A stretch of DNA of 63,950 nucleotides, counting the filler, from Kipferlia bialata (taxonomy: Eukaryota), in the NCBI GenBank assembly GCA_003568945.1. It is 5 parts of 5 records of this genome, joined end to end, with 100 filler letters (N's around TTAATTAATTAA, not from the genome) between each part and the next. Parts side by side here need not be neighbours in the genome. Positions count along the whole stretch, not along the records: positions 16,068 to 32,033 come from BDIP01000646.1; 4 more parts are not named here. The stretch is one strand, 5' to 3'. Shown here one piece after another: positions 16,068 through 46,805 of the stretch. Position 1 is the first letter of the stretch. Each line of letters opens with the position of its first letter. Under the pieces are notes generated by a model. That model searched no databases, was not told the DNA's origin, and saw only the letters and a program-made list of their open reading frames with translations. A program made the translations under genes and the position numbers.

Positions 16068-16181
16068 ATATATAACTACTTTATACACTGACAAAGAAGC
16101 TGGGTGTACCCCCCCCCCCCCCTCTTCTCTTCCGTTACGACAGAAAGCACGCGGGAAGACATAGGCCAAATCACTCCTACC

Positions 16182-16942: not shown

Positions 16943-17097
16943 ACTTTCGGCTTTAGCCTAATAGAAAGTTAAACCCTTTCTCCTGATCGACAAAAAGGTC
17001 ACACATCAGTATCATCGGTCAGTCAGATCAATATTGGCCTCTACTGTGAACTGTAGTGTCAAGTATACAGTGAATGGTTGTCCTCAAAATTTTGGAG

Positions 17098-20000
17098 CTA
17101 CCCGGTTCCGTGGGCGGCAATGTATTCTGCAACTCTCTCCTTGATGTCTGGCCTCTCCGTGACATCCTTCATCCTGGGTGAGATACAACTCTGAATGTGC
17201 GCAGAATTATACTATTGTGCAGTTTTAATATAGGTTACCATATAGTTATGATAAGAATAACATAGCATATCACAAAGCACGCACTCAAAGGTACTCCTGG
17301 AAAAGGGGTCTGGCTGCCCCTTGGTGACAAGCCTCTGGGCAGTATCCCTAGGAAGTGAGTCGGGTATTGTCAAGTGACAGAGTACAGCATACGGAATACC
17401 TTGATACAACATGTCCCGAGGGCAGCTCAACTGGGTCCTCCATGAGTCCATAGGTGATGGGGTCAAAGAGCTCCTGGGGGTTATGGTTATAATGAGCACA
17501 TAGTGAACTGCATACAATTAATTGCATGAATGCGTACCTGAGTCCTCCATGTCATCTAGATACTAGATTATAGAAGGCCTCTATGCATGTCACTGACAAT
17601 GACTCATTGTATATACATATATACATATATATACCTCCACATATATATATACATATATACATATATATACCTCCACATCTGAGTCCTCCATGTCATCTAG
17701 GTCACTGGTGTACTGGGAGGGGCTACTCTGGCCTGGGGTGAGTATATTCATATATTCATATTGATCATAGATTCATACTTTGTATACATCTAACACAGAC
17801 ACAGACATATGTCTGACTTACTTATCAACCGCAGCAGCTCCCCAGCTGCCCTAGAGCCTATGGATGCCCTGTTGTCCTTGATGGCCTGGGGTGAGTACAT
17901 ATATAGTATATATAGGTATGTAGTATATACATATAGTATGACACGATACATATACTATATATATGTGTGTGTCTCTGATTGCCTGTATGCTACTGGCCCT
18001 GGGGTTAGTATATATACATAGTATACACAGATATGTAGTATACATATATATATATATACACACCTGGATGCTGTTGGTGCTGGACTGGATGTCAGCCAAT
18101 AGAGGCATCTCGTGTCTGGACCCCCCTGCCTGCATACCCCTCAGCACACACACCAGACTGCCACACACTATGCCCAGCATGGAGACAGCCAGCTGAATGT
18201 GGCGCTGGTTCTTACGATCTTGTAGCTATAGTCAGATAAATACACCTATGACCACCTAAGTATGTTGGATACTTGTATGAGAATAGCAATACACGCACCT
18301 GGGGTAGCTTGGCAAACAGATGATAATACAAAAGAATATGTATTGTATAAGTTGGACAGTAGGAATAATAGCAGACGCACTTGGGGTAGCTTGGCAAGTA
18401 GCACAACGAGGGCACCCCCTGCGTCTAGGGCTGCCTTGTCCCAGAGGTGGGTGGGGAGGGAGGGGAACACAGACAGGCAGCTGAAGAGTGAGGGAGGGCA
18501 CACTCGCAATAGGTGTGCTTGAAGTTAGATTGGACTCACATTGCTAGTGGGAGCGTGCGCTGCAGGGAACCGATAATGAACTCCCCCTCAATCTCCTCAA
18601 TGTCTCTCTCTATCCCCTTCACCTCTCCGTCTTCATCTGACTCGGTGTCACCGTATTGCTCCCTGGAGTAAGGCTTAGACGGGTTTGAGCATATATATTG
18701 GTTCATATATATACATAAATACATAGAGTCCCACCTGATACATATGAATTCATATATACATATATGTATAATACTCACTGTCTCACCTGAACGTGCCAGT
18801 GAGGAGGCTTACAACAGAGTCACAGTTCTGGGCCACCTAGGTTGTTAGAACAAACGAAATGTTGGTCATGGCAGGAAGATATCAGTTGGCATTTCTATAG
18901 GGCCACTCTCCGTATGAATTGCATTGGGTTCTAACCTGCCGAGACACAAGCTCAAAGAAGGACCGGAAGTTGGAAGACTTCTCTCCCCCTAGACGGCTGA
19001 GGTCGGCGAAGATACCCCTGCAGAGCTGGGTTAGAATCAAATATGACTCTATATAGAGAATAAACGGGGCATGTGGAGCAGGTGGCTGTGAGTGAGAATA
19101 CTATGAATGCTATCTTACCTCCTGGGAGAGTGCCTCACTTGTCTGTGCCACACACAATGCACACTGCACCACATTGGATATCAGGTCCATGGCCAGGGGG
19201 TGGTTGGCCGTGTCGGAGGGCTTGGTCCGACACACAAAGTCCATAGTGACCCTGGGTGAGTAAGCTTACTCCTTCCCTCACAGAGAAGACAACAGGAGAC
19301 GCTATATATATACCTTAGCACTAGCCCTGCCACTGACACAGGCAGTGGGTCCATGTCCAGGTCGATGTCCGTGTCTGTGTTGACCTCTCCACATGGCACC
19401 CAGGGCACCTCGTGCATGGCAAGCTGGGTCCATAGCAGCTGGGGTGAGTGTCTATAACACCCTAAATATAATTATAGTTACAAAAAATATATTCATTATA
19501 CTCCTCGCTATTAACCCTGTAGGTCTCATAGTAAGGCCAAGAGACTGTACTACTCTAACTATATGCTATATATGCACAAATGATATTCACCTGCTCTGTT
19601 AACAGTGAGTCCCTGCTGCGTCTGGGTTCTATAAATATCTACCAGCCTATATATACATATACACACCAACACGATATATATATATAGATATCAATACTGT
19701 ATCCAATCAGTACCTGCTGCGCCTGTCTAGGTATCATTGCACTCCCCCTGGCCAGTCTCTTGATGTCCCCATCTGCCACAGTCTCATAGTCCTCACACCG
19801 GAAGTAGGAGGATAGGACTCCAATGAGGGGGTAGACATCGCCACGCAGTGACTGGGAGTGAGGCTCTGATAGTGAATGGAATTGGGATATACAGGAGTAA
19901 ATCAACCTTGTGTGTCACTGTCTCATCGCTGTTCTCCACATCTCCTGACAGACAGAGAGTGCATAGGACTGCAAGTGCATGGCCAAGGGGTGAACCCCGG

Positions 20001-23000
20001 CTGTTTGTCGTAAACAGCTCGTCGTGAGAGGCAGTGCTACGGTGCAGACACAGCTAAGGTTAGAGAGAAAGGCGAAGCCCAATATCAATGGGGGGTGGGG
20101 GGCAAGCCAGTACTTGGGTAGATTAATATCTCCTACCTGCAGCAGTAGCAGCACCATGGAGTGTGGCAGCAGTCTGTGTGGGTAGTTGGCCACAAACACC
20201 TCGCCCTGTCTGCACGTGGTGAGGGCAGCTGAGTACAGGCGGAACAGGCTGAGCAGGAAGCGACGGATATCGCCAAACACTGAGGGTGAGACATAATCAA
20301 ACACTGCTATTTCATCACTCATCCCTATGAGAAAGTGTCACGAGCTATCTTCTCTTGCCTGGTAGTTTCATCATTGTGGCCGTATGCTTGATATATGCCA
20401 GCAGCAAATCGCGTCTCTTCGTAAGCTGTATCATCCGAGGGTCCTTCTTGGGGTCGGTGCCACCTTGCTTGCACATGTTGGCTACCTGAGGCTTAGAAAA
20501 CAATGTGTGCAAGAACAGAATAATGACGGGTTCCAGTAAATACTATAAGCCAACAGACTCACCATTTTCATCAGTCCCTCCTTGTCTCGTGCCTCTCTGG
20601 GGTCAGAGGGGTAAAATAGTGGATAATATACAATAGAATAATATATTGAAAGGTGTCAAGCAATGCGGTCAGAAGGGAAAGGAGGTGAGAACGAATGAAC
20701 ACATATATGTCTTATGAGGTATCAAGCAACATACCTCTCAGCAGCTGTAATCCTAGTGGCCGAGGGTCCGAGGGAGTGGTGAAGAGAGAGAACGATGCTC
20801 AGTACGAGACGTGTGGCCTAGGGTGTGAGGACAGAAAGAAAGACAATCAAGAATAGAATTGTGTAAAAGACTGGCTACCAAGTACAAGGTGATATATATA
20901 CATATAGCTATACTATACCTTTGACTCCGGGTCTGCCTTGGGCTGGAAGGGCGGGAATCTGGCGGCATTGTTAGAGGGGAGGTCCTCTGTTGTGTCACCT
21001 GGGATGAGAGTAGGCAACACTGATCCACAGGTGGTGAGTCTCTACTACTATATGACTGTATGAATAAGTATCCATTTACCTGTTGTGGTGACCATGTGGT
21101 TAAGCTTGGCCAGGTATGTTGGGTTGAGCATCTGTCTTAAGTCAACCTGCCGGGGGTCGCAGGACCTGTGGTAGGGGTGGTAAGAAAGGGGGGAGTGGAG
21201 TGCTATTATTATATATACCTCAGAGCCTGGCACAACCCGAGAGAGACGCATGCCTTAGAGACTGGGTCTATGTAGTCTCCATCGAAGGGGTCACTCTCCT
21301 GAGGATAAGAGGAAGGGGTAGAGAGAGAGGAAAGAAGTCCAAAGGAGGATAAGAATGAAAGTCTGCTGATTGGACTCATAGAGTATATACATCTGAATTC
21401 GACTCCGAGGAATACTGTGAACAGTCTACCTCTGTGACCCAGGATGTCTTGTCACGGCAGGTGTCAGAGAGCACCCTGTCCAGACACTGCAGCAGAGAGG
21501 CTTGGCAGGTGGGGGCAAGGGTGGCTGAAATGAGAGAGAGGGTGATACACATGTACTATTAGCATGCTTTGGTACCTATCAGTCTGGTGATTGGTCCATC
21601 CACCACTGTCTCCTTGTGTGACACCAGGTGGGGACTGGGGGGCTCATCGGATGCCATAGCCTCTGGAGGTTAGACAACAGCGCCAGCACACTTCGCTCAG
21701 TATACTCTATTTGATACACCCTCTACTATACACTATCTCATCACCTGAGTATGCCCTCCTGACCCTGTCTGTTGCACAGAGGGGGGCAGTGAAGCCTGGG
21801 GTCAGAAACAACACACACACTAATCACAGATACTAGTTATCCTGATATGCTACATACCTAGTGCAAACATGTTTGGCATCCCAGCTCCCTCACTCTCCCT
21901 CTCCCTGTCTTGCAGGTCCACCACAGGTGCACAGTGCTGGGTGAGTGCCCTCTCCACTAGAGTCTGTCCCTGTGCACCCATAGACAGTACGTGCTGGCAC
22001 AGGACAGCACAGAAGGAAACAACCCTGAGGATTAGAATACATACGTATTGTGGTCCAGTACTCACTAATGGAATAATAGTAGTATTATAGTAAGCACAGG
22101 ACAGCGGAAAAGGACACAACCCTGTTTATTAGGTGCCAAGTCACTCAAATATTGAGAAATATACCACATTTGTATACAGTAGTGATGTACTACCTGCCCA
22201 GCTTGTTGGACATCTTGATGGAGAGGGGGCCAGCACTGGAGGTCACCTATGGTTAGAGAGAAATGACTCTCTACCAATATGGAAGACAGATGTGTAGTAT
22301 GCACACAAAATTTCTTCTGGTACTTACCTTAGCAGACACTGTGACACAGAGGTTGAGCATGCTCATGATGCAGTACTGGATGTGACCCGCAGATACTGCG
22401 GCCATGTCTCTCTGCAAAGAGAGAGTGTGTGAGACGAATCTGCCAACAAATGCATCACCCTGGGGTCCCATGCTCAGACACACCTGGGTAAGAGAGAGAC
22501 TCTGACAGAGAGACAGACACTCAGGGAAGATATAGAGAGAGCACAAGAGAGAGAGGAGGGGGTCTGTTATACATACTGAGTTTCATACCCAAAGCAAGGA
22601 GAGAGAGAGAGGTATGACATATATATATATACTGATATGCATACCCCAAGCAAGGCATCGAGGCACTTGGCTGTGGTTGGACATGCATCCTCCCCCTTGA
22701 CAGACACTGTCAGCATGGCTGGGCAGTGCATGATGGAGGAGATGAAGGCAGTCACTGTGTCTGCGGCATCTGTGTACTCCCTCTCCCTGGCCCTCAGGTG
22801 GGTGCTGACAAGGCGGTGCATGACAGCACCTGGGGTGAGGGGGAGAAGGGTGTTGTAAGTGTTAAAGAGTGCGGGGGGAGGGGTGGAACTGGTAGGGGTG
22901 GTGCATGACGCCTGGGATGAGAAGAGGGTGACAAATGTGAGAGAAGAGTTACTGTATATAATACAATATAGTAAGCGTACTCTGAAGAGACTGGCTAACA

Positions 23001-23625
23001 CAGACGAAAGGAGAATGGGGGGTGGGGGGGGGGGCGGGGGGGATGACAGCCTCCAGTCATAGTCTAGGTGATACATGTGACAGACTATACTTCATGAGAC
23101 AATACACACTGGCACACACCTAGAGATGGGGCATCATGTCTGGCAGCTACTAACAGAGCCACATCGAGTGTGCACCCGTCAGGAACCTAGATGGATAAGT
23201 GGCGAGGAGAGTGTGGTAGACTGGTCACTGCAGGAGAGGTATACAGTGACACGGTTAGTTGGAGGGGGGGGGGAGGGGGATTCCCTGCTCAGTGAATGAC
23301 TTACTCATAGAGGTGTGTATCTGTAGATAGAACAAGGGAACTGACAAGTGACGTACTCACTTCAACTGAATATACCCAACCCTCCCTCTTGACACAACCA
23401 TACAACACAGCCACAATTAGTTATAGCTGAGTGACACGCGGGTATTAGACTACGAGGTCACTCATACACTAAAGATAGCTATTGATACTTCGGCACAGGA
23501 CACAGAAACAGCCTAGAGTATATACTATACAGTGTATATATATATATGCATCATACCGGAATGAGCCTGGCCTGTTTCTCATCATAGAGCAGAGTGGTGG
23601 ACAGGGCCTGGAGGGCCTTGTTCAT
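17098..23625 (-). CDS. UFD2: Ufd2/UBE4-like ubiquitin conjugation factor E4 with C-terminal U-box
   Basis: Spliced C-terminus ELFDPITYGLMEDPVELPSGHVVS|RDTAQRLVTKGQPDPFSRSTF|EMKDVTERPDIKERVAEYI is a U-box. It follows a long helical core. Proposed start MNKALQALS at 23625; stop TAG at 17098-17100. Confidence 0.8.
20280..20358 (-). other. GC-AG intron (79 nt) in the UFD2-like gene
   Basis: CCAG|gcaaga...ctcaccctcag|TGTTT gives in-frame MKLP-VFGDIRRF; read-through hits TAG after three codons. Confidence 0.65.
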
Positions 23626-24594
23626 CGACAGATGCCGAAATCACTGGCCTTGTACTTAGTGGCAACAATAGGTAAAGAGAGGCTCTTCCCAATCAAGTAG
23701 TGACTCAGCGGGACCCTTTCTCACAATTAACCGTGTGCTCAAATAGTATACTCAACTACTCAAATAATATACAGCACACTGCTCTGAGCACACTGTGTGC
23801 TTCTCCTGATCACACTAGTACATTCCCATATGAATGTAACGCTGAACATGCTGGGAGATCAAATGATCCACCTGACGAACTGCTGATCCAATAGTCAACA
23901 TCATCCATACATCTCTTGTCATGACCCCCTCGATGGCTGTTGGATGGTGTGAGACAGTACGCAACGGTGGTATTTGACTCTCATACAGTTGAGTGTGCAG
24001 CAGCAACAGCCGGTAGGCTGACAAGGGAGGAGAACTATACGACATCGTGCACAATCGAGTATATTTACTGTTACTATGACGGTGTCCAGGCTGAGTGAAT
24101 GCCATATAGAGATTGTGTCGGGTCATTCTGAGACAGTTTGGATGGATACAACCATTGGCTATGACAGTATAAGTTAACACATTCCCAGTGCCTGTGGAAC
24201 TTCAACAGTGTTGAAGCACTCTCAGAGTGGTTTTCTGAGAGTGCAAGTCAGTGCTCTCTCCTGTACCCCACCAATATTCATGAGACAAATTGGGTAGAGC
24301 ATGGTAATGGTATCGATTTCTATTGCCTAAGGCTCTTTCTGGCATACTATGACACTATACGCATTTCTTTAATGAAGCCTACTATATGGAGGGGTCTTCA
24401 AAAGTTGATATATATGTAAGCGTTCTCTTTCTCTGCAGTACTATATCAAGGGGACACGTGGTTAGAAGCAACTTGATACTACCCACAGCATCTGTATCAG
24501 AGGAGATCTGGATGAGTGAAATCTTAGGCTAACCCAATAGGTCCTGGGGCAATTCTGCTGATACATGACAGCACTCTCTCTCTCTCTCTCTCTC

Positions 24595-25558
24595 TTATTG
24601 TGCTACCTCTGTGATGACAGCACTAGGTGGGATGACAGCCCATCTCATGCTAGGGTGTGGGTACTCCAGCTCGGGGTCTATGTAGTGCAAACATGTGTCA
24701 TGCTGACCTGTACCAAGCACCAAGGCAGGATAGAACATAACACCACTATAGTAGTCGTTCTGTGTTACATCTGGGAACCTACCAACTTCACCTGATATGG
24801 TGTCATACACGTGCCACATGTATGTCTCACATCTCAAATCGTTAGATGACTCTTGACACACAAGCATCAGGCGCCCAATGCTTAGCAGAGTGTCTGCTAC
24901 ACCTGTGTCTGGGATCACTACTCCTGTCTCCACTGTCCATCCTGCACCTTGCTCCAGAGAGATCACTTGGCCACTGTTCATAATGGCATATACTCTGTCA
25001 TATATGGTGCAGGGTTGGCGCAGATACCGCTGAAGCTCTGGTGAAGAATTCCTCCCTCACCCAGCCTGCTTCCCCTCTCTCGGGGTCATACACCCAGAGG
25101 GGGACACTTTTACTGAGTATTTGCGTGCCCATATGAGTAGACTCTCCAATTATGTAGCAGCGTCCATTGTCAGAGAAACAACGTCCGAAATCTACGTCGT
25201 GCACACTTGGTCCTCTCTCTCCCTCTCTCTCTGGACAGTCAATCTCATTAAATGACGTGGGAGAGTCTAAATCCATGAAAGACATTCGCCCCTTCCCTGT
25301 GTCATCACACGTGTAGGCATATAGCCTTGGCCCGACACTGTAGAGTAATGGGGAGAACGTATAGTTCTCTGGATCGAACTCAAGCATATCAAGTGAATGG
25401 TTCTTTATGGCCCCGGTCTCTGTGAGGGTGTAGAAGTGGAAGAGGGGAGCATCATGATCCGTTGAGACAGCCATGTTGTGGAGTACAGAAAGGCTAAGGT
25501 CGGCATTGCCTGGTAGCTCATCCTTCACCCTCTCATGTGCTATGAAGAGAGGCTCCAT
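24595..25558 (-). CDS. Kelch-like beta-propeller protein split into two frames (frameshift or micro-intron near 25030-25060)
   Basis: 186-aa and 128-aa ORFs read as one protein: LYSVGPRLYAY, DNGRCYIIG, LWVYDPERGEAGW...IYDRVYAIM, WHVYDTISGE, C-terminal IDPELEYPHPSMRWA. Confidence 0.7.
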
Positions 25559-25995
25559 TATCTCTCAGAAGAAGAATAGCTTACGGGGGAGCTGCCAGCG
25601 GGTGGGGGTATAGAGTCTAGTGGCCAGACACAGTAGCACTAAGAGGGTTACACTTTGAGGGTCTCACTCAAGAGTATGGAGCCGTCGAATGAGAGGATCA
25701 TTGTGAGACCATTTCTTAAGAATTCCATATCACTGTATATGAACTTCTTTGGTACTGTTGATCAAGGTAATTTGCCCATACCCTATTATGATACCTCCAT
25801 AGCAGGTGTATCCTACACGGAAGCTGGTAAAAAACGCCAGTACACAGTCTGCCGATTGAGTAGGAGCTACTACCAGTCAAGACGCGTATGACTCCTTGAT
25901 CTCTCTAACTAAGAGATAGACTCATTGAGTTCAAAACCATAGCAGCATAATAGTCGTTGTTTACTTGAGATTACAATAATATGGCTGATATACAT

Positions 25996-26517
25996 CTATT
26001 TCCTAGCTATCTGAGACTCGAGCGCTGCTATAACCTGACCGTAGTGGTGTGTGTAGTGTGCCTTGCACTTGGCTATCTCCTGTGCCATGTGTGTCTCATA
26101 GGCACCCCTCAGAGCGGCATGTCTGTCTATCAGGCCCTGGTTCTCCTTGGTCCTCTCACGCAGCTCTGCCCTAAGAGCCTCAGCCTCAGCCTCTGCAGCT
26201 CTGGCCAGGTCTAGCTCGCGTTGTGTAGACACCAACTCCTCCTGTAGAGCGGATATGTACTGATGGAAGAAGACATCGTCCTGATGGGAGTCGTGTAGAC
26301 TATGCGTGTTGGAGACGGATGCCTGGGTATAGGTGCTGCTGGGGGGAGTGGTACCACTGGCACTACCCCACTGTGTGTAGACAGGCTCTGGTCTGTGGAG
26401 CCAAGTGACATTGGGTGCAACCCTAGAGGTGTCAGACACTAATCCGACACTGACATGGTGTGATGCTGGTACTTGGCGTGCAACAGAGTTGGAGTAGCGT
26501 GCAACACTAGTGCTCAT
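25996..26517 (-). CDS. Intronless hypothetical protein with C-terminal coiled coil (173 aa)
   Basis: ATG-to-TAG ORF with exon-like composition; heptad-like segment YISALQEELVSTQRELDLARAAEAEAEALRAELRERTKENQGL. Confidence 0.65.
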   Translation of the reverse strand: MSTSVARYSNSVARQVPASHHVSVGLVSDTSRVAPNVTWLHRPEPVYTQWGSASGTTPPSSTYTQASVSNTHSLHDSHQDDVFFHQYISALQEELVSTQRELDLARAAEAEAEALRAELRERTKENQGLIDRHAALRGAYETHMAQEIAKCKAHYTHHYGQVIAALESQIARK

Positions 26518-27027
26518 GTCTGGACCTATACTGATATGCTAAATTGAACTCAGTGGAAGAGAGGATCGTGTCAGCAATCTACCAACTACCCTCTACACGA
26601 CCATGCCGCGTAGAGCTAAAACTAATGACAAGTGTCAAAAATGTCTGAACCCTTATTTCAATACTTTTACCCGATGATTGCAAACAGTACTATACATACT
26701 GCGCGGACTGCGCAGCGCAGCCGTAAGACCCTCGAGTACGTATGACGTACTGCGGCACATGCGTGAAGTGGTATAACAAGGCTGGGATCAAGGGCTTCCG
26801 GTAATGTATAGTGTATGCAGTTTCAGAGTCTGAACTTCAGACTACAGACTCTAGTCTACAGTACCGTGAGCAACCCTCTCACTGAAAAGATGCTATTCTC
26901 CCCTAATACACGATCATTGAACACGATCTTTTAGGAAAAGCTATTGACAATACTACTCTTCCAGTCAATCATCCAGCAACTCTGGATTCTATTGTGATTA
27001 TTGCTCAGATTAGAGAGACACTTCCAT

Positions 27028-28083
27028 ATGGAGTGTGGGTGTGCCGTCTGCGCAGAGCCAGACAATGGACCTTGGGTAGTCACCCGCTGTGGACATGCAT
27101 TCCACAGAGCTTGTCTGGAAGCTTCTCTGAGGTATGTGACACGGTATATTTAGGGCCATTCCACGGAGTGTTTCGGGCGTTCTTTAGAATGTGTTATGAG
27201 GAATTGTTGGATGCATGGTATTGTAGAGATACTCCTGTATTATCGTCATATACCACAATAGAATACCATCCGTGAGTGTCTCTATTGTCTCTCTCTAAGG
27301 GAGACTCTCTAAGCATAGGCACAACAACCTCTGTCCCATGTGTCGTGGCCATGTAGCTATGGATACCTGCTACCCACTATTCCCGGTACGTACTACATAG
27401 CCTATACTATCTGCTATGTACACAGGTACAATAGAGACCCATGCCTTGTGTACACTATCTGTTAGTCAGCCTCGGGGCTCTCAACAGCCTATAACATACA
27501 TATCTAGCACAGTGTGGTTATTCTTTATGGCGTGTGTATCTAACAGCAGACCGTAATCGAAGGCAGAGAGGGTACGAGTACTAATGTGGAGGCAGAGGAG
27601 ACGATACGTGTTCTCCTCAACAGCATCCAGGACGGCACTGCGGGAAGAGTGGCTGAGCAGGAAAGGGCAGCCCGGGAGATTGAGCAGCTAACAGAGGCCT
27701 TGCGGCTTGAGGAGTTCAGAAAAAGGGAGGCATTGACCCAGTTAGCCAGAGAGCGAGAGAGAGCAAGAGAGAGGGAGAGGCAGCAGCACACAAGAAGACC
27801 AGGTGCAAAGGGGTTTAGAGAGGTGATCTCAATACTAGGCCTTGTCATTGGGTGCATCAGCGCTCTGTTTGGCCTTGGTCTCTGTGCAAGGTACACCCCA
27901 CTACTGCAGGGATTTGCGGTGTTGGCACGTGGTCTCTGGTGCTCCGTTAGATTCACTCGAGACTGTGCAACAATGGTACTCTGGTGGTGCTTTAGAGGTG
28001 TAGCTTGGCTGTTGAATACTGCAGCTACAGCACTCAAACTATACGTCTATACCTTCCCGGCAAACCCAGTTGTGGGTGACTGA
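27028..28083 (+). CDS. RING-H2 E3 ligase with coiled coil and C-terminal hydrophobic (probable membrane) region
   Basis: Exons 27028-27131, 27319-27385 and 27550-28083 give CAVC..CGHAFHRAC..CPMCR (C3H2C3), then a coiled coil, then VISILGLVIGCISALFGLGLC. Confidence 0.9.
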
Positions 28084-28338
28084 TGTTAAGAAGGCAAACT
28101 AGCATTGTCCATTTATAGATAACAAACTTGGTTATGGTTATGCCATCTTGTCGGAGAGCGTTTTCAGAAGTTCTAACACCTGTGTTCGTTTCATTGTCTA
28201 GTAAAACCTTTCTCTGGGTAACGTATTCATTTACACTTCATTTGGCTATGTGACAGAGAGAGAACTCTGCTGAAACCGTCGTGCGTCTATTACCCAGTTG
28301 TGGCTTGCATTGTGAAACCACTACTGTGTTATACAGAG

Positions 28339-30254
28339 CTATGGCTGTGCACAGAGCTCGACACATCTGCCAAGACATGCATCTTCACACTGGTCCACAC
28401 ACAGACACCCCACACCCTGGCACTCACACATCAGAGGGCAGAGGGAGAGACACACCGACTCACAGTCAGAGAGACAGTGGAAGGGAGCTGCAGAGCCAAT
28501 GGGTGGATCAACCAGGTTACCGTCGTCGTCTACTGCACAGTAGGTACCACACTCCTCTACCTCTACACAGGGGTCACACTCGATGATGTCGTCGTCGTCG
28601 GGTGGGATGGGGGTGGTGCAGTCGTAGCCTGGGTGAGGTATATTGACGACAGGTTGATAATAGACAGAGACACTCTGTCAGAGAGAGAGAACAGATACTC
28701 GAAGGGAGTTTGTTGCAGTCGTAGCCTGGGGTAGTGATTGGGTGGTTATGGAGTGAGAATACAACTGGGAGAGAGAGTTACCTAGTGTGCACAGTTGTAG
28801 GTGAAGTCTTTTAGAGGTAGTCTAAAGAGACACAGCAATGAGAGTGTTGGAATACACATTGACACAGAGATACCCAGTGTGCCGCAGTTGTAGTTGAAGT
28901 CATGGGGAGGGAGGTCACAGTCGATGTCAGCGTTGCACTGGACAGACAGAGTCTGAGGGTGAGAGTAGTGTCTACTCATTTATAATTGTCGTATACTAAG
29001 AGTGTGTGAATTACTAATCCCTAACGATGGTACCGTTAATGACTGACTGTACCTGAAGGAACTCCAGCTCTAGGAACTCCACAGGTACAGAGCCGGAGAG
29101 AAGGTTGGACACAACGTCAAAGACCTGGTGTGAATGTATGTGAATATATGTGATGTGCTAACTGAGTGCAACAGACCGAGCAAAAGCGATAAACGGGACT
29201 ATGTGAAGTAGGGTGGTGTGAGAACTACTATCAACTAAAGAGACCGTACCCGTATGTACTCCATCTGGTCGACACAGGTGGGTATCTCCCCAGAGAGAAG
29301 GTTGTTGCCCAGGTTTAGACTCTGGTGTGAGATACTACCATATGACGATGACATACATACTACCTGCATGTGTCTCCACTGGACTTACTATGTAGTCATA
29401 CACCACTGCCTATATATGTTTATAGATTACAGTTTCTATTACTATACCACCTGCATGTGTCTCCACTGGCATATGCAGTCATCGATGGGGCCAGACAGGC
29501 CAGACTTGTTCATGGACAGAGACTGATATGAGTAATCAATAGAGTGGTTGTCTACACGCATTGATAAGAAACCAATACCTTCAGCTCTGTGGCCCCACAC
29601 AGTGCTGTAGGGAATCCCTCGATGTCGTTGTCATTGAGTGTGACAGTCTGGGGGTTAGGTTGGTGACTGTACCTATGTGGCAATGGGCAGTTGAGGAATT
29701 CTGTTGAATGAATACCCACAAATGTTTGATGGACATTTGACATACCTGTAGAGAGGTGAGACACGATATGGTGTCTGGGATTGTGCCGTACATGCCAAAG
29801 TCTGGGGTGAGAAACACAGTGATCTAGTATACATTGATAGACTGCCACTCACCAAATAGTAGTCCCAATATGTTGAGAGACCATCACTCACCTTGCATGT
29901 TGAGCACCTGGACAAACCCTCTCTTGCACTGCACACCAGTCCAGTCGCAGATGTCAACGTCACTCAGCCTGTGGTCAGTATCACTATCTATACTACCAGT
30001 ATGTGTGATACATACACTGCCGACAAGAGGAGCGCCAGCACAACGGCATTCAGCGCTGAGAGTACTTAGTGTGGTGCTATGAAACAGAATGACATCAATA
30101 CACACAAGGCAGTAGATAGTACATACCAGTTTGTGCTCTTTGTCCACATGTCCCCATCTGTGGCATAGTAGAGCTCAGTGAGTACATCTCTCTCAGAGGG
30201 ACATTGTGCAAGGGCAATGCCGACCAGGCAACCAATCAGTGCAAGTAGGAGCAT
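28339..30254 (-). CDS. CWP: Giardia-type cyst wall protein homolog: signal peptide, LRR cap, about 5 LRRs, Cys-rich domain, extra Cys-rich tail
   Basis: Spliced product MLLLALIGCLVGIALAQCPSERDVLTELYYATDGDMWTKSTNWLSDVDICDWTGVQC...GTIPDTISCLTSLQ...GLSGPIDDCICQWRHMQ...LSGEIPTCVDQMEYI...QCNADIDC...CDPCVEVEECGTYC. This follows the architecture and Cys spacing of Giardia CWP1-3 as I recall them. Confidence 0.85.
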
Positions 30255-30261
30255 CTATATA

Positions 30262-30394
30262 CTGATGTCAGGGACTCAATCCGCAGTGTGGTAAGCACAC
30301 TGTATACGCTACCCTGATACGGCAGGTCGTAGTATGATCGATGAATGGGAGTCGTAATTCTATGATCCTGGTGTTGCTGAACTGTATACCTTAC
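30262..30394 (-). other. Probable 5'-UTR intron of the CWP gene
   Basis: Donor GTG|gtaagg at 30394 and consensus acceptor ctgacatcag ending 7 nt before the ATG. Confidence 0.6.
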
Positions 30395-30430
30395 CACTCT
30401 CTCTCTGAAGAGAAGGAGAGTGAGCACTAG

Positions 30431-30551
30431 CTGTAGCAAGAGCTCCTTAACTGTAGAATGACCTCAACAGTGATGTTAACAGTGTCACTATTCCCTCAAC
30501 AGTGTCGAGTCTCTATGCTGCCAACGACAACTGTTGACAAGTGTCAACAGT
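30431..30551. promoter_or_regulatory. Cluster of six C(T/A)ACAG boxes upstream of the CWP gene (Myb2-type encystation elements)
   Basis: CTGTAG 30431 and 30451, CAACAG 30465, 30497 and 30545, CTGTTG 30531, plus variant TAACAG 30477. The last two exact boxes lie in a perfect 10-bp inverted repeat, 30530-30551. Confidence 0.7.
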
Positions 30552-30629
30552 GACAGAAAATGTCATCTGTCAGTATGTCCTATACCTGGTCTTATATGAC
30601 CCTCTGCAACTGTATTGTTCCGCCGAAGT

Positions 30630-31867
30630 CTATTCCTGCTCTAGAATCTTGTCGCACAGGACAGGAGTATTTGGATGAGTAACAGTATTGGCAATGTATA
30701 TATCGATGATTTCAGAAGGCTCGGGACCTTCAGAAGAACTCCCACAGGCGTTGATATCTCCCGTTGGTACGGCAGACGGCACTTTCCCATTATTGGAGAG
30801 AGAATAGACACACGTTGACACTGCGGTCTCACCGAGGAGCTCACCGTCTCCGTCAGTGTCAATGGCGTTGGCGCGAGATTGTTCCAATCTGATCTCTACG
30901 TCTGCCTCTCTGGATATACCATGGCCATTGAAGTAGGCCCGTCGCTTGTCATTCATAGCCTAGGCGTCAATGGAAGCAATGATTATAGTCCATCAGATTC
31001 ACATGCCTATTAACATACCTGTCTCTCGGTTACTGTAGCAAATGAGTAGTGCACAATACAGCCAAGCACACCCATACATGACCATATGATGGAGAGACAG
31101 CCTGAGGCTACGGCAGCGGCACAGTATGGACCATAGTATCTGAAGAATGAGGAAGACTCGGTGTGTATGCAACGCGATTATATAGATAGACCTCACAAAG
31201 TGGGTGTGAAGAGTACCAGCACTTACGTGTCCCAATGAATACCGCTGTGTGTGGAGTGCAAGTACTTACACATGGGTGGACTTCGGTGCTTTGTAGTAGT
31301 GCACATGCCGAGACAGTGCGATGTGCATGCACTGGAAGCGGATATAGCTCTGCGGTAAGAGGGTCGTTGCCATTGCACGAATGTATATCTATCACCCAGA
31401 TTTTCAATTATATACATTATATATACAATATATACGTAAGACTGAGCCTCTCACCTCTATTGCAAAGAGTAGACCTGCGCTGAGATTGACCCACATGAAG
31501 ACCTAGGGTTAGACTACTACATTATGTAATATACAATATATACATGATATAGAGATGTGGGGGATTCTATTTGAGTCCCACACTGTGCGCCACAGGTAAC
31601 AACTACTCTACCTGTGGCTTCCTATACGCTCTTCTCTTCAGCAGTCTGCTCCAATAGACAGCCCAGAGCGGCATCGCTGGGTGTTATAGGAGCTGCATAC
31701 ACTGATAGATATACGCCAAACTGCCACACTCTCATGGGATTCAAATGGGACCTGTACACACTGAGAGACACACAAACCTTACTGAAACATCGATATGTGA
31801 CTCAGGTGGCCGTACCTGCAAATGACACCTCACAGCACAGCATGATGACACAGCCCCAGTCCCACTC
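30630..31867 (-). CDS. Hypothetical membrane protein, 5'-truncated
   Basis: In-frame exons EWDWGCVIMLCCEVSFA|AMPLWAVYWSRLL...|YYGPYCAAAVASGCLSIIWSCMGVLGCIVHYSF...|AMNDKRRAYF...EQE-stop. Confidence 0.6.
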
Positions 31868-32033
31868 CTGAGACACAAGCATGTGGATCCAACTGGAGGT
31901 GAAATACTCCTTACATATATAAATGGAAATCTTGTTTTCCGTCGGAGGTAGGGCTTCAAAAATATAGAGATAGATTTTATATAGAATAATGATATTCTAT
32001 ATTTCTATATTTTAGAGACAAAAATGTGCTGAA

Positions 32034-33470: not shown

Positions 33471-36015
33471 GTATGTATATATTAATATATACATTATTAT
33501 TAGTATTAGTATTAATATGTGTATATATATACCAATGCCAGGCTAGTCAAGAGTGCCGTGGTGTGGACTGCCCAGCAGACAGGCAAGGCCATACCCACAC
33601 TCACTAGCAAGGTATGGAGATGTATTGATTCACATATATATAGTATTATATATGTGTATATACTAGTACCCTCCCTCACCACCCAGGACTTCCTCCAAAG
33701 GGGTCTAGGGGGACTCATCGCCAAGAGGGGCCTCAGTGCACTGCTCAGGTTTAGTAACACTATTCACTACTCGCTTGTCACACATTATCACAGTATGTCA
33801 TTCCCTTACCCTTTAGTACTGTGCAGCGTGACATTGCAGACAGGGTGAGGTTTGCCTGTCCCATCGTGCCCCTCTCTGCATCAGACCCCCACCCCACAGT
33901 GGTGGTCTTCTCCCCACACCCAGGCAAGTAGTGTGTTCTATATGCTAGTGTTTTGTTCTCTCCACACCCAGGTAGATCAGCAGTGTGTTGTATACGCTCT
34001 GTATGCTATATTCATACCAATTCTGACCTCCGTATATGGACATTCGCTCACCCCCAGATGACGACGTGGTGTCCATGGGAGGCACACTATCCAACCTCCA
34101 GGTATGGAACCATACATGACATGAATTATATATATTATTGAATGAGTGCTGTAACCCATGGAGTATCGTACAGTGTACTGATACCCAGGCCCATGGGTGC
34201 GATGTGCACGTGGCATATATGGTATCTGGCTCCAATGCCGTCAGCACAGACAGTGTCCTGGCACACTCTAGGTATATATATATATATATATATATATACG
34301 ACTAGTCATTGTTACTCTTAGGTTGGTTTAGTAGCTACAGATTTAGTAACAAGTTGGTTTAGACACCTGACAACAAATTTTGATACTTGACACTGACCCT
34401 TAGATTTGCCGAGACCCTTGCCGATCTGAACCATATTACAATACATTGCACTTCCTGTCACAGATATACTCTACTCTTACTATTAGATTTGCCGAGACCC
34501 TTGCTGATCTGAACCCTGCCCTGAAGGGGGTGTCTGAGTGGATCAAGGATAACATGGATAGTAAGGAGATAGGTACGTTATGCGTCATGATATGTCACTC
34601 TCTATTGTGTACGCCCTAACTATACATATATATATATATGTATGTGTGTGTATTATACACATACCCTCACCCTCTAGGCATCCAGCTGAAGGGTGCTGTG
34701 CGTCGGACCGAGGCCACAGCAGCTGTGGAAGGGATGGGTGTACCCCAGGACCACGTACACTTCCTGGACCTGCCATTCTACACGTACGGGTCTCTCTCTC
34801 TCTCCCCCCTATGTACATTTCTCTCCCCTTACCCCTTATCTCATCCTCTAGTACCAAGAGTGCCCCCGAGGCCCCCGAGAACGTCGACCGTGTCTCCAAG
34901 CTCCTCAACGCCTTGCAGCCCAGCCACCTCTTCCTGGCAGCTGATCTCTGTGATCCCCATGGCACTCATGGTGCATGTTACGAGGCACTGAAGGCGGCTC
35001 TCTCCACCTTCTCTCTCTCCCCCCCTCTGCCCCCCTGCAAGTGCAGTCTCTGTACCCAGGGCATGGCACCCTCTGCGTCTCAGCTGGTGCCTCTGCTGGG
35101 GGCACTGTCACCACCCGACCAGACACACACACAGCCAGAGCACCCGAGGTATGGGTGCATTCGGATATTGATATATCTACTTCGTGGATACAGTAACTAT
35201 ATGTGGAAACAGTAACTATACTCTTATATATCCTCACTCCCCAGACTGTGGCTCTACAGAGGTGCCTGGCAGGACTACCCGGCTGATCAGGTATGTATGT
35301 GTATATTCCACACACACTACCAGGGCAGTACGTATTATATATGCATGTGTACAATATACCCTGAAACCTAGGCCGATGTGATCCTGGCCCTGACTGGTGA
35401 GCAGCTGACCCAGAAGCTGGTGGCCATCCAGAGGCACTTCTCACAGGGGGCAGGTACTGTATCTATAAGTATATCGTATATATACGTAACCTTATGCTCC
35501 ACGTCATCCTCTACGTGCCATCTTTAAGGGCACAGTTGATAATGTATTTATATGTATACAAACATGTTTGTGTGTATGCACAATGTATACATGTCTCACT
35601 CCCCAGGTGCCATGTTCAAGGGCACAGACTCCAGAGAGTTCTGGGAGAGAGCCAGGGACAGAAACAAGGTGCTTAGCTATGATGCTAATTACTGCATATA
35701 GGCTAATTCTAGTGGTACTGATAGTGATACTGACCCCAGGCCCTAGCCAATGAGCTTGCCCAACTGCAACTAGTGATGCTAATATAGTATCAATAGTACT
35801 TATAGCATATACCTCTATTGATACTGACCCCAGGCCCTAGCCGATGAGCTTGCTTAGCTGGCAAATAGCCTCTACTATACCACCTAGTAGTATTACCGTG
35901 TAACTTCATATACATATTGTACTGACCCCAGGCCCTAGCCGATGAGCTTGCCCAGCTGGGCCAGGGGACCTATGTGGCAGCAGAGGCCTTTACCACTGGG
36001 TTCGAGCTTCCATAG
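32232..36015 (+). CDS. nagB: Glucosamine-6-phosphate deaminase-like domain fused to PIG-L-family deacetylase (long bacterial NagB type), 5'-truncated
   Basis: Spliced motifs KSAVVWTAQQTGKAIPTLTSKDF, VFSPHPDDDVVSMGGTL, VHVAYMVSGSNAV, KGAVRRTEA, HFLDLPFY, DLCDPHGTHGAC, LWLYRGAWQ, FKGTDSREFWERARDRN and YVAAEAF match the long Bacteroidetes-type NagB. Confidence 0.88.
33924..34057 (+). other. GC-AG intron interrupting the HPDD metal-binding motif
   Basis: CACCCAG|gcaagt...ctcacccccag|ATGACGAC restores FSPHP-DDDV; read-through gives GGC AAG TAG. Confidence 0.85.
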
Positions 36016-38803: not shown

Positions 38804-40257
38804 AGACATGAGAGAGGCGAGGAGGACCATGACTGATACGTTGTCAACAGTCACTGGGGTTGGAGGAGAGAGAGAGATGAGTAGAAAGATGTGCGTGAAT
38901 ATGGTATACTCACCATCCCATGCTGTGGCCAGTCCCACATCAGTATATATATATATATTGCCCACATATATGTATACTATTACACATACTGATGCTTATT
39001 ATCAAATATTACTATTAAACACTATCAGTTAGTCACTCACCATCCCATGCTGTAGCCAGTCCCACACACACCAGACACCCTATGCTGAACAGGAGGAGGA
39101 GGACAGTACCATCCCTGGAGTGAGATAAGACAATAGAGATAGGTATACATATATATACATATGTTGAGAGAGAAAGAGAGATAACATGAAGAGAGGGACA
39201 GTGTCATCCCTTGGGGAGTGAGGTATATTGATATTGGGATAATATATATGTGATATACCTGGGGGGGGGGGGAAGAGAGAGAGAAAGAGAAGGAGGGAGA
39301 GAAAGAGAGAGAGAAAGAGTAAATGGAAAACTACATGGGTGAGCGGAATGCATGCTTACATAATTAGAGCACTCGGAGAAACAACCAAGAGCTGATGGTA
39401 ATATAAACACACACTCTGGTCCAAAGCTTGGGTAGTATATAGAATAGTATACACTCACCGCATCCCCCCTGTCTTCCTCCCCCTCATCACGACCATCAGG
39501 AAGGGCATATACTCATATATATATATATATACTATATAGAACACATAATATAGTAGAGAGCGTCTTCATACTCACCTCATCCCCCCTGTCTTCCTCCCCC
39601 TCATCACGACCATCAGGAAGGGGTATTCAATTATGCAATATATTCATCACAGTCATACTATATATACAAATATGGATATGTAGTACATATTATGTACCTC
39701 ATCCCCCCTGTCTTCCGCCCCCTCATCACGACCATCAGGAAGGGGTATTCAAATATGCAATATATATATCACAGTCATACTATATATACAAATATGGATA
39801 TGTACCTCATCCCTCCTGTCTTCCTCCCCCTCATCACGACCATCAGGAAGGGCAGGATGTTGGCCAGATTGTAGCACACAGTGATGTGGGAGGAGATGGC
39901 ATCGCCCTCGGGCAGGGTCTGGGGGTATTAGAACACACTGATACATATAGAGAGAGAGAGAGAAAAAGAGAGAGGGGGAGAGAGGGTGAAAGGGAGAGGG
40001 AGTGGGAGGAGATGGAATCACATTATTATCACTTGAGCAGGGCCTGGGGGTATCAGCACACTGAGAGACACACCTATTTACATTTCAAGTCTGCTCATAT
40101 AGAACCATTGATTGAGGACATCCCAAGTGTAGTACAACCTGCATCATGTGTATCCACATACCTTGATGAAGAACGGGGCCTCACTCCAGAGTGCATTGAT
40201 CAGGGTGAATGGACCAAACCCCAGGCACAGGTGCAATACAGTACCCAGGAACCGAGA

Positions 40258-41058: not shown

Positions 41059-43927
41059 CTACAGTCCATCTAGCTGCCTTGCCATCTCCGCTATCCCAGC
41101 CAGGACCAGGGGTGCATTGGACACATCATCTGCTGCCTCCAGCAGACACTGTACATCCACGGGTAGGTGCCTGGTGGCGTCAAAGCGAGAGGGCAGGGAG
41201 ACACACTTCTCACCACCGTGGGTCTCGACATACTCCTGAGGGTAAGATAATACTTCAGTGCCAGAGTATATATGTACATACCTTGAGATCCGTGACTGCC
41301 CCCTTCACTGTCTCCATTGTGAGCAGTGTGTCGTATACCGGGTCCCCCGTGTCCACCCCGATGCACAGCAGACCTGTATCAGTATCAGTATCAGTATCAG
41401 TATCAGTATCAGTATCTATTATATATGATACTGATGCAGACCTGTCCCACCCCGCATGTGGTCATACTGGTAGACGGTGCCACGTCTGGCATCGGCATCA
41501 AGGGAGTGGCCCTAAGGGTGAGATATCTATATATATATGTGTGTGTATATACTGGTAGATGGTGCCACGCCTAGCATCGGCATCAAGGGAGTGGCCCTGA
41601 GGGTAAGGGAATATATATACTCTATATATACTATAGACATATGTATATACACTACCTTGCTGTACATGTACTGTACATACACTGTATATCACTGCTGTAT
41701 TGCCCAGTAGTATACATAACCACGAAATATATAGACTCATATACCTTGCTGTACATGTACTGCAGCACTGATGTCTTGTCCAGGGTGGCCAGATGGGCAA
41801 AGTGAACAGAGGGGACCCACGCCCAGACAGGCCTAGTGTCAGGGTGTATCTCTACAGATAGGGGGGGTAAGAGAGTTAGAAAGTAACACAGACCCATACA
41901 TAGGTATACACATGCATACCTGATGAGTGCCGTTGACACAAAGGACAGGGACACCAGGGGGGATACGCCTGGGGGGTTAATGTACCATGACTGGGTGTAC
42001 CTAACAAATACGATCCATGAGTTTCTTTGCATGTGATGTATGAGGCACGCACCTGGCGTGATTGACCTGAGCATAGATGTATATACATATACACCGCTGC
42101 CGGGTATGAGTGTGATAGTACATGACACCTGTAGTGCTTAATTCTTTGTATATAGTAGCGTACGGTATATAACATACCTGGCGTGATTGACCTGAGCTGC
42201 AGCCCCGACACCACCCCCTCCTGCCCTGTGTCTGTGCCTATCTGACACGACATGCCCACAGTCACATACCCAGACACACCGTGGGTGGCAGCGGAGAGAG
42301 TGACCTGGGGGTGAGGCATGTATAGAATATATCATAGGGGGAGAGAGAGAGAGAGAGAGAAACCGTGGGTGGCAGCGGAGAGAGTGACCTGGGGTGAGGT
42401 ATACATATATATGTGTGTGTATATAGAGAGAGAGAGAGAGAGAGAGACAACTTGGGTAGCGGCAGAGAGCGTGACCTGAGTGTTACTCACATACATACAT
42501 ACATCATAGGTATTCAATGCAGTTATATGCTATCATGATGGGTGTACATTATACCTGTCTTGCTGCCAGTATGAGTGTGTCTGGGGCATTGAGTGATGAA
42601 GTGATGTATATGATACACTACGAAATATATAGCAACAAGCTCATCTATATAGTACTATATTATGCATACACTTTCATGGTGTATACTATCAACTATACAG
42701 TACTATATGATACCTGTCTTGCTGCCAGAATCAATGTGTCTGGTGCATTGAGGGTGGCATACCCCACGGACCTGGCCCTAAGGGGTCAGGGAGAGAGTCA
42801 GGAATTATATACATAGAGAGGGTGATATCAAAGAGAATAGATACAAGTCAAACTACATATATGTGAAACTACTATGACAGATACCCCTACCTGTGTCCCA
42901 GTAGACACGGTGCTATGACCACGTGACTGGCCACAGCCACACAGTCAGACAGGTGCACACCCTCGCCCATGCCAGTGCTGCCCTGGGGGTTAGTGTATGA
43001 TAATCATAGACAGCGAGATACAATACATATTCATTCAAATATGCTTTCTCTTTAGATCTGGCGATGAGTTCTGATGAGACTTCATGCCCTACCTCGAGTG
43101 CAGCTGGGGGCACATAGACTGTATACACTAAGCACTGAATACTATACATATACATACTCCAATGATGCAAATACATAGATACATACATACCTCCAGTGCC
43201 GCTGGGGGCACATAGACTGTGACTGCAAAGGACAGAGAGGAACTGTCCAGACACCTAAGAGTTAGTACACAAGATATTTATGCACTATAACTAAATACTA
43301 CAGTATAGCGCCAAAGGGTGCAAAGGATAGAGACGTACTGTCCAGACACCTGAGGGGTTAGCACACATACACATCCACACCTATACATACCATTGCGAAA
43401 TGAATATGTACCTGTGGTATATAGCCCCAGCCGGTACCAGTGTATTATCCTCAGCATCTGCCTCTGCACTTTCTACCACACCCTGTATGGATGGGTGTGG
43501 GGGGCCATACACAGGCAGTGTGTGTGTGTCCTTGTCGACATACACTGCACCTGTGCCCTCACCCCCAGGGTGGGAGGGAGAGACAAAGGGGGGCAGGGAG
43601 AGAGACGCAGTGTCTGTCATGTCTACATGGGGAGAGCAGACATACGGGGGAGGGAGAGGGGAGGGGGAGGGCACCCCCAGGCCATCTGGTATGGCCACAC
43701 CCCCACCCACACCCCATGACAGTGGTGATACAACACGTGCTATGGCCTCTGGGTCACCAGAGAGAGAGGGCAGGTTGCACCGAAGGGCGAACCTTCTGAA
43801 TAAAGGGTCCATGGCCTGAGAGGGTGTGGGGGATATGAATGAGACAGAGCACCCTAGGGAGAGTGCTAGGCCCTTGACCCGGACGTGGCACCTGGCGGAT
43901 AAGAAGACGAAATATGCTATACATATA

Positions 43928-46766: not shown

Positions 46767-46805
<39 letters not shown>

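What the first reader, a model, noticed from the sequence alone, without database searches (positions are those of the whole stretch)
28339..30551. Giardia-type cyst wall protein gene with six Myb2-type boxes: a candidate conserved encystation regulon
Seen: a CWP-like protein and six exact C(T/A)ACAG boxes in 120 bp (30431-30550), just upstream of a probable 5'-UTR exon. At equal base composition about one such box per kb is expected. Established: Giardia Myb2 binds C(T/A)ACAG in promoters of encystation genes (cwp1-3, glucosamine-6-phosphate isomerase). Inference: the same Myb-CWP circuit operates in an intron-rich, probably free-living relative, so it would predate parasitism and imply a regulated cyst stage.
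Basis: partly seen in the sequence, partly recalled or inferred. Interest (0 to 1): 0.85.

Follow-up and report, generated by a model that had tools for sequence, protein, structure and literature searches.

The report
Cyst-wall gene in free-living Giardia relative
A free-living relative of Giardia (Kipferlia bialata) has a gene that likely encodes a Giardia-type cyst wall protein, with six copies of the DNA box that switches on Giardia's cyst genes clustered just upstream, so the cyst-making switch would be older than parasitism.

Summary
Observation confirmed. The gene is Kipferlia bialata KIPB_003391: nine exons, 304 aa in my model (the annotation skips one 72-nt repeat exon), with a signal-like N-terminus, five leucine-rich repeats, an acidic Cys-rich region and an extra 63-aa Cys tail. 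No Giardia CWP could be fetched, so no tree. Against CWP peptides printed in a paper it matches in register, 46-47 of 115 residues by hand, versus 36 +/- 3 for 541 generic modules (1 of 541 reaches 46), and shares odd repeat positions and cysteines. Six exact CWACAG boxes lie 177-296 bp upstream of the ATG; 0 of 450 simulations gave six in 120 bp, and no other 120 bp of the window holds three. A likely 5'-UTR intron would put them just before the transcript start (inferred; no RNA). Not shown: expression, cysts, a Myb2 orthologue, binding, or any second gene, so 'regulon' is untested. Four boxes are also a generic Myb site within a longer local repeat. Verdict: likely new CWP-family member (0.8) with a real Myb-type box cluster; conserved Myb2 circuit about 0.4.

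The parts
30127..30254 (-). Coding exon 1: ATG, hydrophobic signal-like peptide (about 16 aa), start of the N-terminal LRR cap
   Evidence: LRRNT_2 19-57; hydropathy peak at residue 1
29892..29968 (-). Exon 2: end of cap (C50, C57), start of LRR1
29746..29801 (-). Exon 3: rest of LRR1 with non-canonical D-F-G and C82
29579..29647 (-). Exon 4: LRR2 (C104)
29451..29522 (-). Exon 5: LRR3, 72 nt, in frame, skipped by the public annotation; carries the strongest CWP-type marks (N-K-S-G-L, C-I-C-x3-H-M)
29250..29321 (-). Exon 6: LRR4 (C150), 72 nt
29053..29124 (-). Exon 7: LRR5, 72 nt
28874..28952 (-). Exon 8: end of solenoid (C188) and start of Cys-rich region
28339..28628 (-). Exon 9: acidic Cys-rich region ending in C-x2-C-x5-C-G-x-Y (226-238), then a 63-aa extension with 12 Cys, mostly in C-x3-C ladders on two predicted helices; stop at 28339-41
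28699..28725 (-). Possible 27-nt in-frame mini-exon inside intron 8 (part of a decayed internal duplication); use unknown
30255..30261 (-). 7 nt of 5'-UTR after a splice-acceptor-like site ending at 30262 (inferred)
30262..30397 (-). Inferred 5'-UTR intron; candidate donors at 30397, 30394, 30389 (128-136 nt, like the gene's other introns of 56-245 nt)
   Evidence: no RNA support
30395..30424 (-). Inferred short non-coding first exon; initiator-like TCACT with A at 30421 (resemblance to the trichomonad initiator is recalled, not tested)
30431..30550 (.). Cluster of six exact CWACAG boxes plus a seventh TAACAG-T at 30477; -177 to -296 from the ATG, -10 to -129 from the inferred start
30530..30551 (.). 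Perfect 10-bp inverted repeat (2-nt spacer) made of the two distal boxes
30630..30959 (-). Last exon of an unidentified upstream gene; its stop lies 80 bp before the cluster

Best explanation
KIPB_003391 is a nine-exon Kipferlia bialata gene that likely encodes a secreted cyst wall protein of the Giardia CWP family, and the six CWACAG boxes upstream are likely binding sites for a Myb factor that would switch it on when the cell encysts. Shown: gene structure, signal-like N-terminus, cap plus five LRRs, acidic Cys-rich tail, no membrane anchor, and a box cluster far beyond chance. Inferred from Giardia: the protein enters the secretory path, its LRR solenoid binds a beta-1,3-GalNAc polymer, and its cysteines cross-link it into a wall; the extra Cys-ladder hairpin would add cross-links or a partner surface in place of CWP2's basic tail. 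Inferred for the DNA: transcription starts near 30421, a 5'-UTR intron is removed, and several Myb molecules bind within about 130 bp of the start, as at Giardia cwp1. Odds by step: CWP-family homologue 0.8; boxes work as Myb-type promoter sites of this gene 0.65; the factor is a Myb2 orthologue running a multi-gene encystation regulon 0.4.
For: Host and gene. Architecture fits the published CWP definition (signal peptide, 4-5 LRRs, over 14 conserved Cys, C-terminal Cys-rich region): 16 Cys in residues 18-241, pI about 4, no hydrophobic 19-mer above 1.6 after residue 20. Giardia CWP peptides with positions (PMC8579046 Table 8) fall on the model in register (offset 0 to 2 across cap and LRRs): hand count 47 of 115 for CWP1/B, 46 of 115 for CWP2/B, against mean 36.2, sd 3.2, max 47 over the same 113 model positions for 541 generic cap+LRR modules, 1 of 541 at 46 or more. 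Shared odd features: D-[MF]-G in LRR1 (0 of 357 other stored proteins), N-[KNS]-[AS]-G-L in LRR3 (3 of 357), C-[IM]-C-x3-H (0 of 357). A Spironucleus CWP primer reads C-G-x-Y at that protein's end (my translation); the model has C-G-x-Y at 235-238, close to CWP1's length of 241. Boxes; Poisson chance of six in the 375-bp intergenic stretch 6e-6 to 3e-5; two CTACAG alone 0.002. The motif was fixed in advance by the gene's identity (CWACAG). Giardia cwp1 has an array of such sites, most followed by T and including TAACAG-T, as here (primers), with several sites acting together. Spironucleus CWP and GalNAc genes share an upstream motif. K. bialata has the UDP-GalNAc pathway.
Against: No full-length Giardia or Spironucleus CWP came back from three word searches, the representative search or the Atlas; all listed neighbours are generic LRR proteins, so orthology rests on a hand comparison with paper peptides. 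The diagnostic motifs were picked after seeing both sides, and the control modules are mostly unnamed or bacterial, not other K. bialata LRR proteins. One generic module reaches the same identity (47). CWP Cys166 is Ser164 here; C82, C104, C150, C188 are not covered by the peptides seen. Boxes sit 177-296 bp from the ATG against about 41 bp in Giardia; the Giardia-like position depends on an unproven intron. They face both ways and are 12-34 bp apart, not in a 7-bp tandem as in cwp1; the three cwp1 sites that mattered were not exact CWACAG. Conservation of motif and position is already weaker in G. muris. S. salmonicida has 107 Myb proteins, so another Myb could own these sites. Small local duplications are common in this gene. 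Cysts are documented in only two Carpediemonas-like genera, not Kipferlia. Across 17,389 genes 0.1-0.55 such clusters are expected by chance.
Confidence: 0.55

Rival explanations
1. The protein is a CWP homologue and the boxes are bound by a Myb, but by a different Kipferlia Myb reading the longer site TYAACAGT (or the generic YAACNG core); the likeness to the Giardia Myb2 circuit comes from shared Myb chemistry, and the gene may serve a coat or stress stage rather than a Giardia-like cyst.
For: TYAACAGT has 5 of its 9 window copies here and YAACNG 7 copies; two boxes form a perfect palindrome; Myb families are expanded in S. salmonicida; Myb factors go with encystation in unrelated protists too.
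Against: The two proximal boxes are CTACAG, which is not a YAACNG core and is the Giardia form (chance 0.002); the ACAG-T flank matches Giardia cwp1.
Confidence: 0.22
2. The protein is a CWP homologue but the cluster is non-functional: a decayed local micro-duplication in the 3' flank of the upstream gene that happens to contain the hexamer.
For: Direct-repeat families of 11 and 25 nt overlap the boxes; exon-end duplications occur twice inside this gene; the cluster begins 80 bp after the upstream stop codon.
Against: Similarity among copies is limited to the 8-11 bp core, no tandem array is called, copies face both ways, and of 5,285 comparable motif classes only this motif and its overlap cluster outside plain repeats; the odds that a chance cluster of exactly this motif sits before this gene are near 1e-5 to 1e-4.
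Confidence: 0.1
3. The protein is a generic secreted LRR protein (bacterial-type cap plus LRR module with a Cys-rich tail) of a wider K. bialata family, convergent with or only distantly related to CWPs.
For: All database neighbours are generic LRR proteins at about 22-45% identity; one of 541 modules equals the Giardia identity count; the last 63 aa have no counterpart in CWP1.
Against: Same repeat number and register, shared loss of the canonical Asn in LRR1 and LRR3, in-repeat cysteines at 0-5 of about 530 aligned generic modules (C82, C104, C126, C128, C150), C-G-x-Y at the CWP end position; and the independent presence of the CWP promoter motif.
Confidence: 0.13

Closest known systems
Giardia intestinalis cyst wall proteins CWP1/CWP2 (GL50803_5638, GL50803_5435; 241 and 362 aa)
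   Same: Signal peptide, cap plus five LRRs in register, in-repeat cysteines, Cys-rich C-terminal region, acidic LRR part; 46-47 of 115 printed peptide residues identical by hand.
   Different: Eight introns (one LRR per exon for repeats 2-5) where Giardia genes almost never have any; 63-aa acidic Cys-ladder extension instead of CWP1's end or CWP2's basic tail; CWP Cys166 absent; function untested.
Spironucleus salmonicida CWP homologues (e.g. SS50377_15904)
   Same: CWP-1 homologues outside Giardia in a species where no cyst was seen in culture; C-G-x-Y near the end; shared upstream motif with GalNAc-pathway genes.
   Different: Parasite, eight near-identical copies, shown to traffic to Giardia cyst walls; its motif logo is a figure I could not see, so I cannot say it is CWACAG.
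Giardia Myb2 regulon (CWACAG sites at cwp1-3 and other encystation genes)
   Same: Same hexamer, several copies, ACAG-T flank, TAACAG-T variant.
   Different: Giardia sites average about 41 bp from the ATG and mostly one exact copy per gene; here six exact copies at -177 to -296, both orientations, one palindrome; factor and targets unknown.
Generic cap + plant-type LRR modules (Pfam PF08263, PF00560; Bacteroidota multi-module proteins, plant receptor ectodomains)
   Same: Fold and LRR consensus, about 30-40% identity.
   Different: Lack the in-repeat cysteines, the altered LRR1/LRR3 and the Cys-rich tail.

Membership tests
Diplomonad cyst wall proteins (CWP1-3) | N-terminal signal peptide | tested here: met
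   Hydrophobic first 19 residues (Kyte-Doolittle 2.2) ending A-L-A; no dedicated predictor run
Diplomonad cyst wall proteins (CWP1-3) | Four to five tandem LRRs (PMC2867935) | tested here: met
   Five in my model, four in the public annotation
Diplomonad cyst wall proteins (CWP1-3) | More than 14 positionally conserved cysteines | tested here: inconclusive
   16 Cys in residues 18-241; four (50, 57, 126, 128) match printed CWP peptides in register, C226/C229 fit CWP1 C224/C227 spacing, one CWP Cys (166) is missing, the rest are not covered by what I saw
Diplomonad cyst wall proteins (CWP1-3) | C-terminal Cys-rich region, no membrane anchor | tested here: met
   C-G-x-Y as at the end of the Spironucleus CWP
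Diplomonad cyst wall proteins (CWP1-3) | Groups with CWPs in a phylogeny / reciprocal best hit | not tested
   No full-length CWP returned
Diplomonad cyst wall proteins (CWP1-3) | Induced at encystation, goes through ESVs to the wall, LRRs bind GalNAc polymer | not testable with these tools
   Giardia properties
Giardia Myb2 regulon | CWACAG upstream of the gene | tested here: met
   Six exact copies, beyond chance
Giardia Myb2 regulon | Sites close to the start (about -41 from ATG; -45 to -100 at cwp1) | tested here: inconclusive
   -177 to -296 from ATG, so not met on the ATG scale; -10 to -129 from an inferred start if the 5'-UTR intron is real
Giardia Myb2 regulon | Motif shared by several encystation genes (CWPs, GalNAc pathway, myb2 itself) | not testable with these tools
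   No genome held
Giardia Myb2 regulon | Myb2 orthologue present, binds the sites and is needed for induction | not testable with these tools
   No Myb2 query sequence or genome available

The most novel reading that the evidence does not exclude
A free-living fornicate keeps the whole Giardia encystation switch: an orthologue of Myb2 reading the same hexamer in front of an orthologous cyst wall protein. The factor-site-target link would then have survived the split between Kipferlia and diplomonads, intron loss and genome compaction, and K. bialata would have a regulated, so far unseen cyst stage whose wall protein carries an extra disulfide-stapled helical hairpin.
Probability: 0.4. Interest if true: 0.75.

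Novelty: new member of a known kind. Interest (0 to 1): 0.58.

Why it matters
The cyst is how Giardia spreads, and its wall proteins and Myb2 switch were described only in diplomonad parasites in the papers I read. A CWP with the same promoter code in a free-living relative would show that wall protein and switch, not only the wall sugar, were inherited pre-adaptations. It gives a one-gene reporter for finding a hidden cyst stage in K. bialata and a rare test of very old cis-regulatory conservation in protists. It is not a new kind of system, and a pre-parasitic origin of cyst chemistry is already expected.

Tried and rejected
Genome-wide motif enrichment and Myb2 search: no genome held. Fetching diplomonad CWPs or paralogues: tail query gave only the gene's own protein (1 of 21 candidates); full protein gave 95 hits of 883 candidates, all generic LRR besides self; representative search was filled by long multi-repeat proteins (best 150 of 66,352); a two-row profile listed 120 of 3,065 hits, none named CWP; Atlas gave generic LRR clusters and nothing for the tail. 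These searches depend on shared words, summed repeat scores or big clusters, so the blank says nothing about orthology. Metagenome scan: 23 pattern matches, none confirmed. RNA: no RNA holder listed; the one possible RNA run laid 0 contigs on 25500-32000, no evidence either way; the DNA run covers the locus in one contig with no differences but may be the source. Structure: single-sequence model of the protein unusable (pLDDT 43); tail model shows two helices at pLDDT 72-80 but no PDB match at E<=0.001. PDB sequence search: plant LRR receptors, no CWP among 60 of 144 shown. Column counts, 59 were partly on gapped columns; I rely on the pairwise recount. My first guess that the upstream gene is a DHHC enzyme found no support. 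Morf et al. 2010 not held. Earlier scan notes: nothing.

Full report
Source. The window is five scaffolds joined by N spacers (15968, 32034, 48055, 57371). The gene lies on the 15,966-bp piece 16068-32033. A search with its last exon returned one protein at 100% identity, KIPB_003391 of Kipferlia bialata, GIQ82284.1, 280 aa, named hypothetical or LRR N-terminal domain protein. K. bialata is a free-living fornicate with 17,389 genes and 124,912 introns (PMC5874029, passages).

Gene. On the minus strand nine exons from 30254 to 28339 join into 915 nt, 304 aa and a stop; all 8 introns are GT-AG with a branch-like word a few bases before the AG. The public protein lacks exon 5 (29451-29522, 72 nt, phase 0). 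Exons 4-7 each carry one LRR (69, 72, 72, 72 nt). The product has a hydrophobic N-terminus, an LRR cap (PF08263), five repeats, 16 Cys in residues 18-241, 12 more in 242-304, 48 acidic against 9 basic residues and no later hydrophobic stretch above 1.6. The last 45 residues are predicted as two helices with C-x3-C ladders (pLDDT 72-80, single sequence), without a PDB or Atlas match.

Is it a CWP? CWPs are defined by a signal peptide, four to five LRRs, more than 14 conserved cysteines and a Cys-rich end (PMC2867935, PMC2924369, passages). No full CWP sequence came back from any search, so I compared by eye with the CWP peptides and positions printed in PMC8579046 (section 13 read whole). They fall on the model in register: CWP 29 on 29, 67 on 66, 91 on 90, 108 on 106, 125 on 123, 159 on 157. 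By hand CWP1/B matches 47 and CWP2/B 46 of 115 residues (two one-residue gaps allowed). Over the same 113 model positions, 541 cap+LRR modules from 223 of the 357 other stored proteins give 36.2 +/- 3.2, maximum 47, 1 of 541 at 46 or more; those modules were themselves top hits of very large searches. The model and the peptides share departures from the LRR consensus: D-[MF]-G in repeat 1 (0 of 357 other proteins), N-[KNS]-[AS]-G-L in repeat 3 (3 of 357), C-[IM]-C-x3-H (0 of 357). These patterns were chosen after seeing both sides. In-repeat cysteines 82, 104, 126, 128, 150 occur in 0, 3, 0, 5, 2 and C188 in 17 of 508-538 aligned modules; only 126 and 128 are covered by the printed peptides. 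The reverse primer for Spironucleus CWP SS50377_15904 translates to C-G-x-Y at that protein's end (PMC3916229, passages and section 13; my translation); the model has it at 235-238, near CWP1's length of 241. Against: CWP Cys166 is a Ser here, the controls hold no other K. bialata LRR protein, and there is no tree. I put CWP-family homology at 0.8: a CWP-sized core plus a 63-aa extension.

The boxes. Six exact CWACAG lie at 30431-30550, 177-296 bp before the ATG and 80-200 bp after the stop of an unidentified upstream gene. The window has 73 in all; no other 120 bp has three; 0 of 450 Markov simulations reach six. Among 5,285 comparable hexamer classes, 55 reach six, 53 of them in two C-rich runs and one tandem repeat and 2 here. 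Poisson chance for this 375-bp intergenic stretch is 6e-6 to 3e-5, or 0.1-0.55 such promoters per genome. Since the motif is fixed by the gene's likely identity, the coincidence counts. The copies are not independent, however: TYAACAGT has 5 of its 9 window copies here, a seventh site TAACAG-T sits at 30477, seven sites fit YAACNG (the generic Myb core; recalled), and the two distal boxes are a perfect 10-bp palindrome. The two proximal CTACAG, both on the gene's strand, are not explained by that longer motif (chance 0.002).

Position. One acceptor of the gene's own type ends at 30262, 7 nt before the ATG (chance 0.02 with a strict, 0.14 with a loose pattern; the strict one fits 6 of the 8 coding introns), with donors at 30389-30397 and an initiator-like TCACT at 30421 (initiator likeness recalled). 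If right, the boxes lie -10 to -129 from the start. No RNA could test this.

Comparison with Giardia. CWACAG is the verified Myb2 site, found in 14 of 21 genes up at 7 h, on average 41.5 bp from the ATG, mostly once per gene, and less conserved in G. muris (PMC8700996, passages and supplement rows; PMC7641422, passages). myb2 knockout abolishes cysts; cwp1-3 promoters hold four to seven consensus sites, and three at -45, -59, -66 act together (PMC9547401, passages). Its primer table shows cwp1 as a tight array of such hexamers mostly followed by T, including TAACAG-T and CTACAG-T, while the three effective sites are degenerate (supplement rows; my reading of the mutated primers). Spironucleus CWP and GalNAc genes share an upstream motif whose logo I could not see, and that genome has 107 Myb proteins. 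So the array here works like a cwp promoter in word and multiplicity, and differs in spacing, orientation and distance from the ATG.

Mechanism. Most likely a Myb factor, induced under stress, binds several boxes just before the start and turns on a secreted LRR lectin that binds a GalNAc polymer and is cross-linked by disulfides into a cyst wall; the tail adds cross-links. Only the anatomy and the statistics are shown. Rivals: another Myb and another stage (0.22), generic LRR protein (0.13), chance micro-duplication (0.10).

Novelty. [quoted passage not shown] I found no passage reporting a CWP or Myb2-type sites in Kipferlia: searches (listings; of the papers naming Kipferlia I read passages of five: PMC7762791, PMC7641422, PMC11437800, PMC5874029, PMC7985675), and none for the accession. 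Figures and the supplements of those five were not seen and could list such a homologue; subscription papers are not held. PMC13332039 and PMC1805757 were seen as passages only. Verdict: a real feature; probably a new CWP-family member with a real Myb-type box cluster; a conserved regulon is a good, testable, unproven hypothesis. Interest 0.58.

Noticed in passing
window 28629-28873: Intron 8 holds a decayed tandem copy of the end of exon 8 and the start of exon 9; a 27-nt in-frame mini-exon (28699-28725) with good splice sites would add a cysteine.
   Followed up: partly
window 29355-29385: Intron 5 repeats the last ~20 nt of exon 5 with its donor, perhaps why the annotation skips exon 5.
   Followed up: partly
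window 26842-26884: Two CTACAG 14 bp apart followed by CTCTCACT upstream of a RING-finger gene (RING at 26998-27150), 1.4 kb from the CWP-like gene; not significant alone.
   Followed up: no
window 15968, 32034, 48055, 57371: 100-bp N spacers join separate scaffolds; neighbours across them are not linked. The first scaffold is much lower in GC (34-39%) than the rest.
   Followed up: yes
window 3884-4238, 8079-8367, 9373-9822, 35721-35959, 39574-39804, 46556-46802: Tandem arrays with periods of 90-150 bp that look like exon-plus-intron duplications.
   Followed up: no
window 41376-41416: A 6-bp tandem repeat that accounts for 47 of the 55 other dense hexamer clusters.
   Followed up: yes
window 30630-31900: Unidentified multi-exon gene upstream on the same strand, with hydrophobic exons; no Pfam match above cut-off for four ORF pieces.
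   Followed up: partly
P0096-P0244: The closest cap+LRR modules come from very long multi-module proteins, and Atlas neighbours are mostly Bacteroidota; a bacterial origin of the CWP module is a lead only.
   Followed up: no
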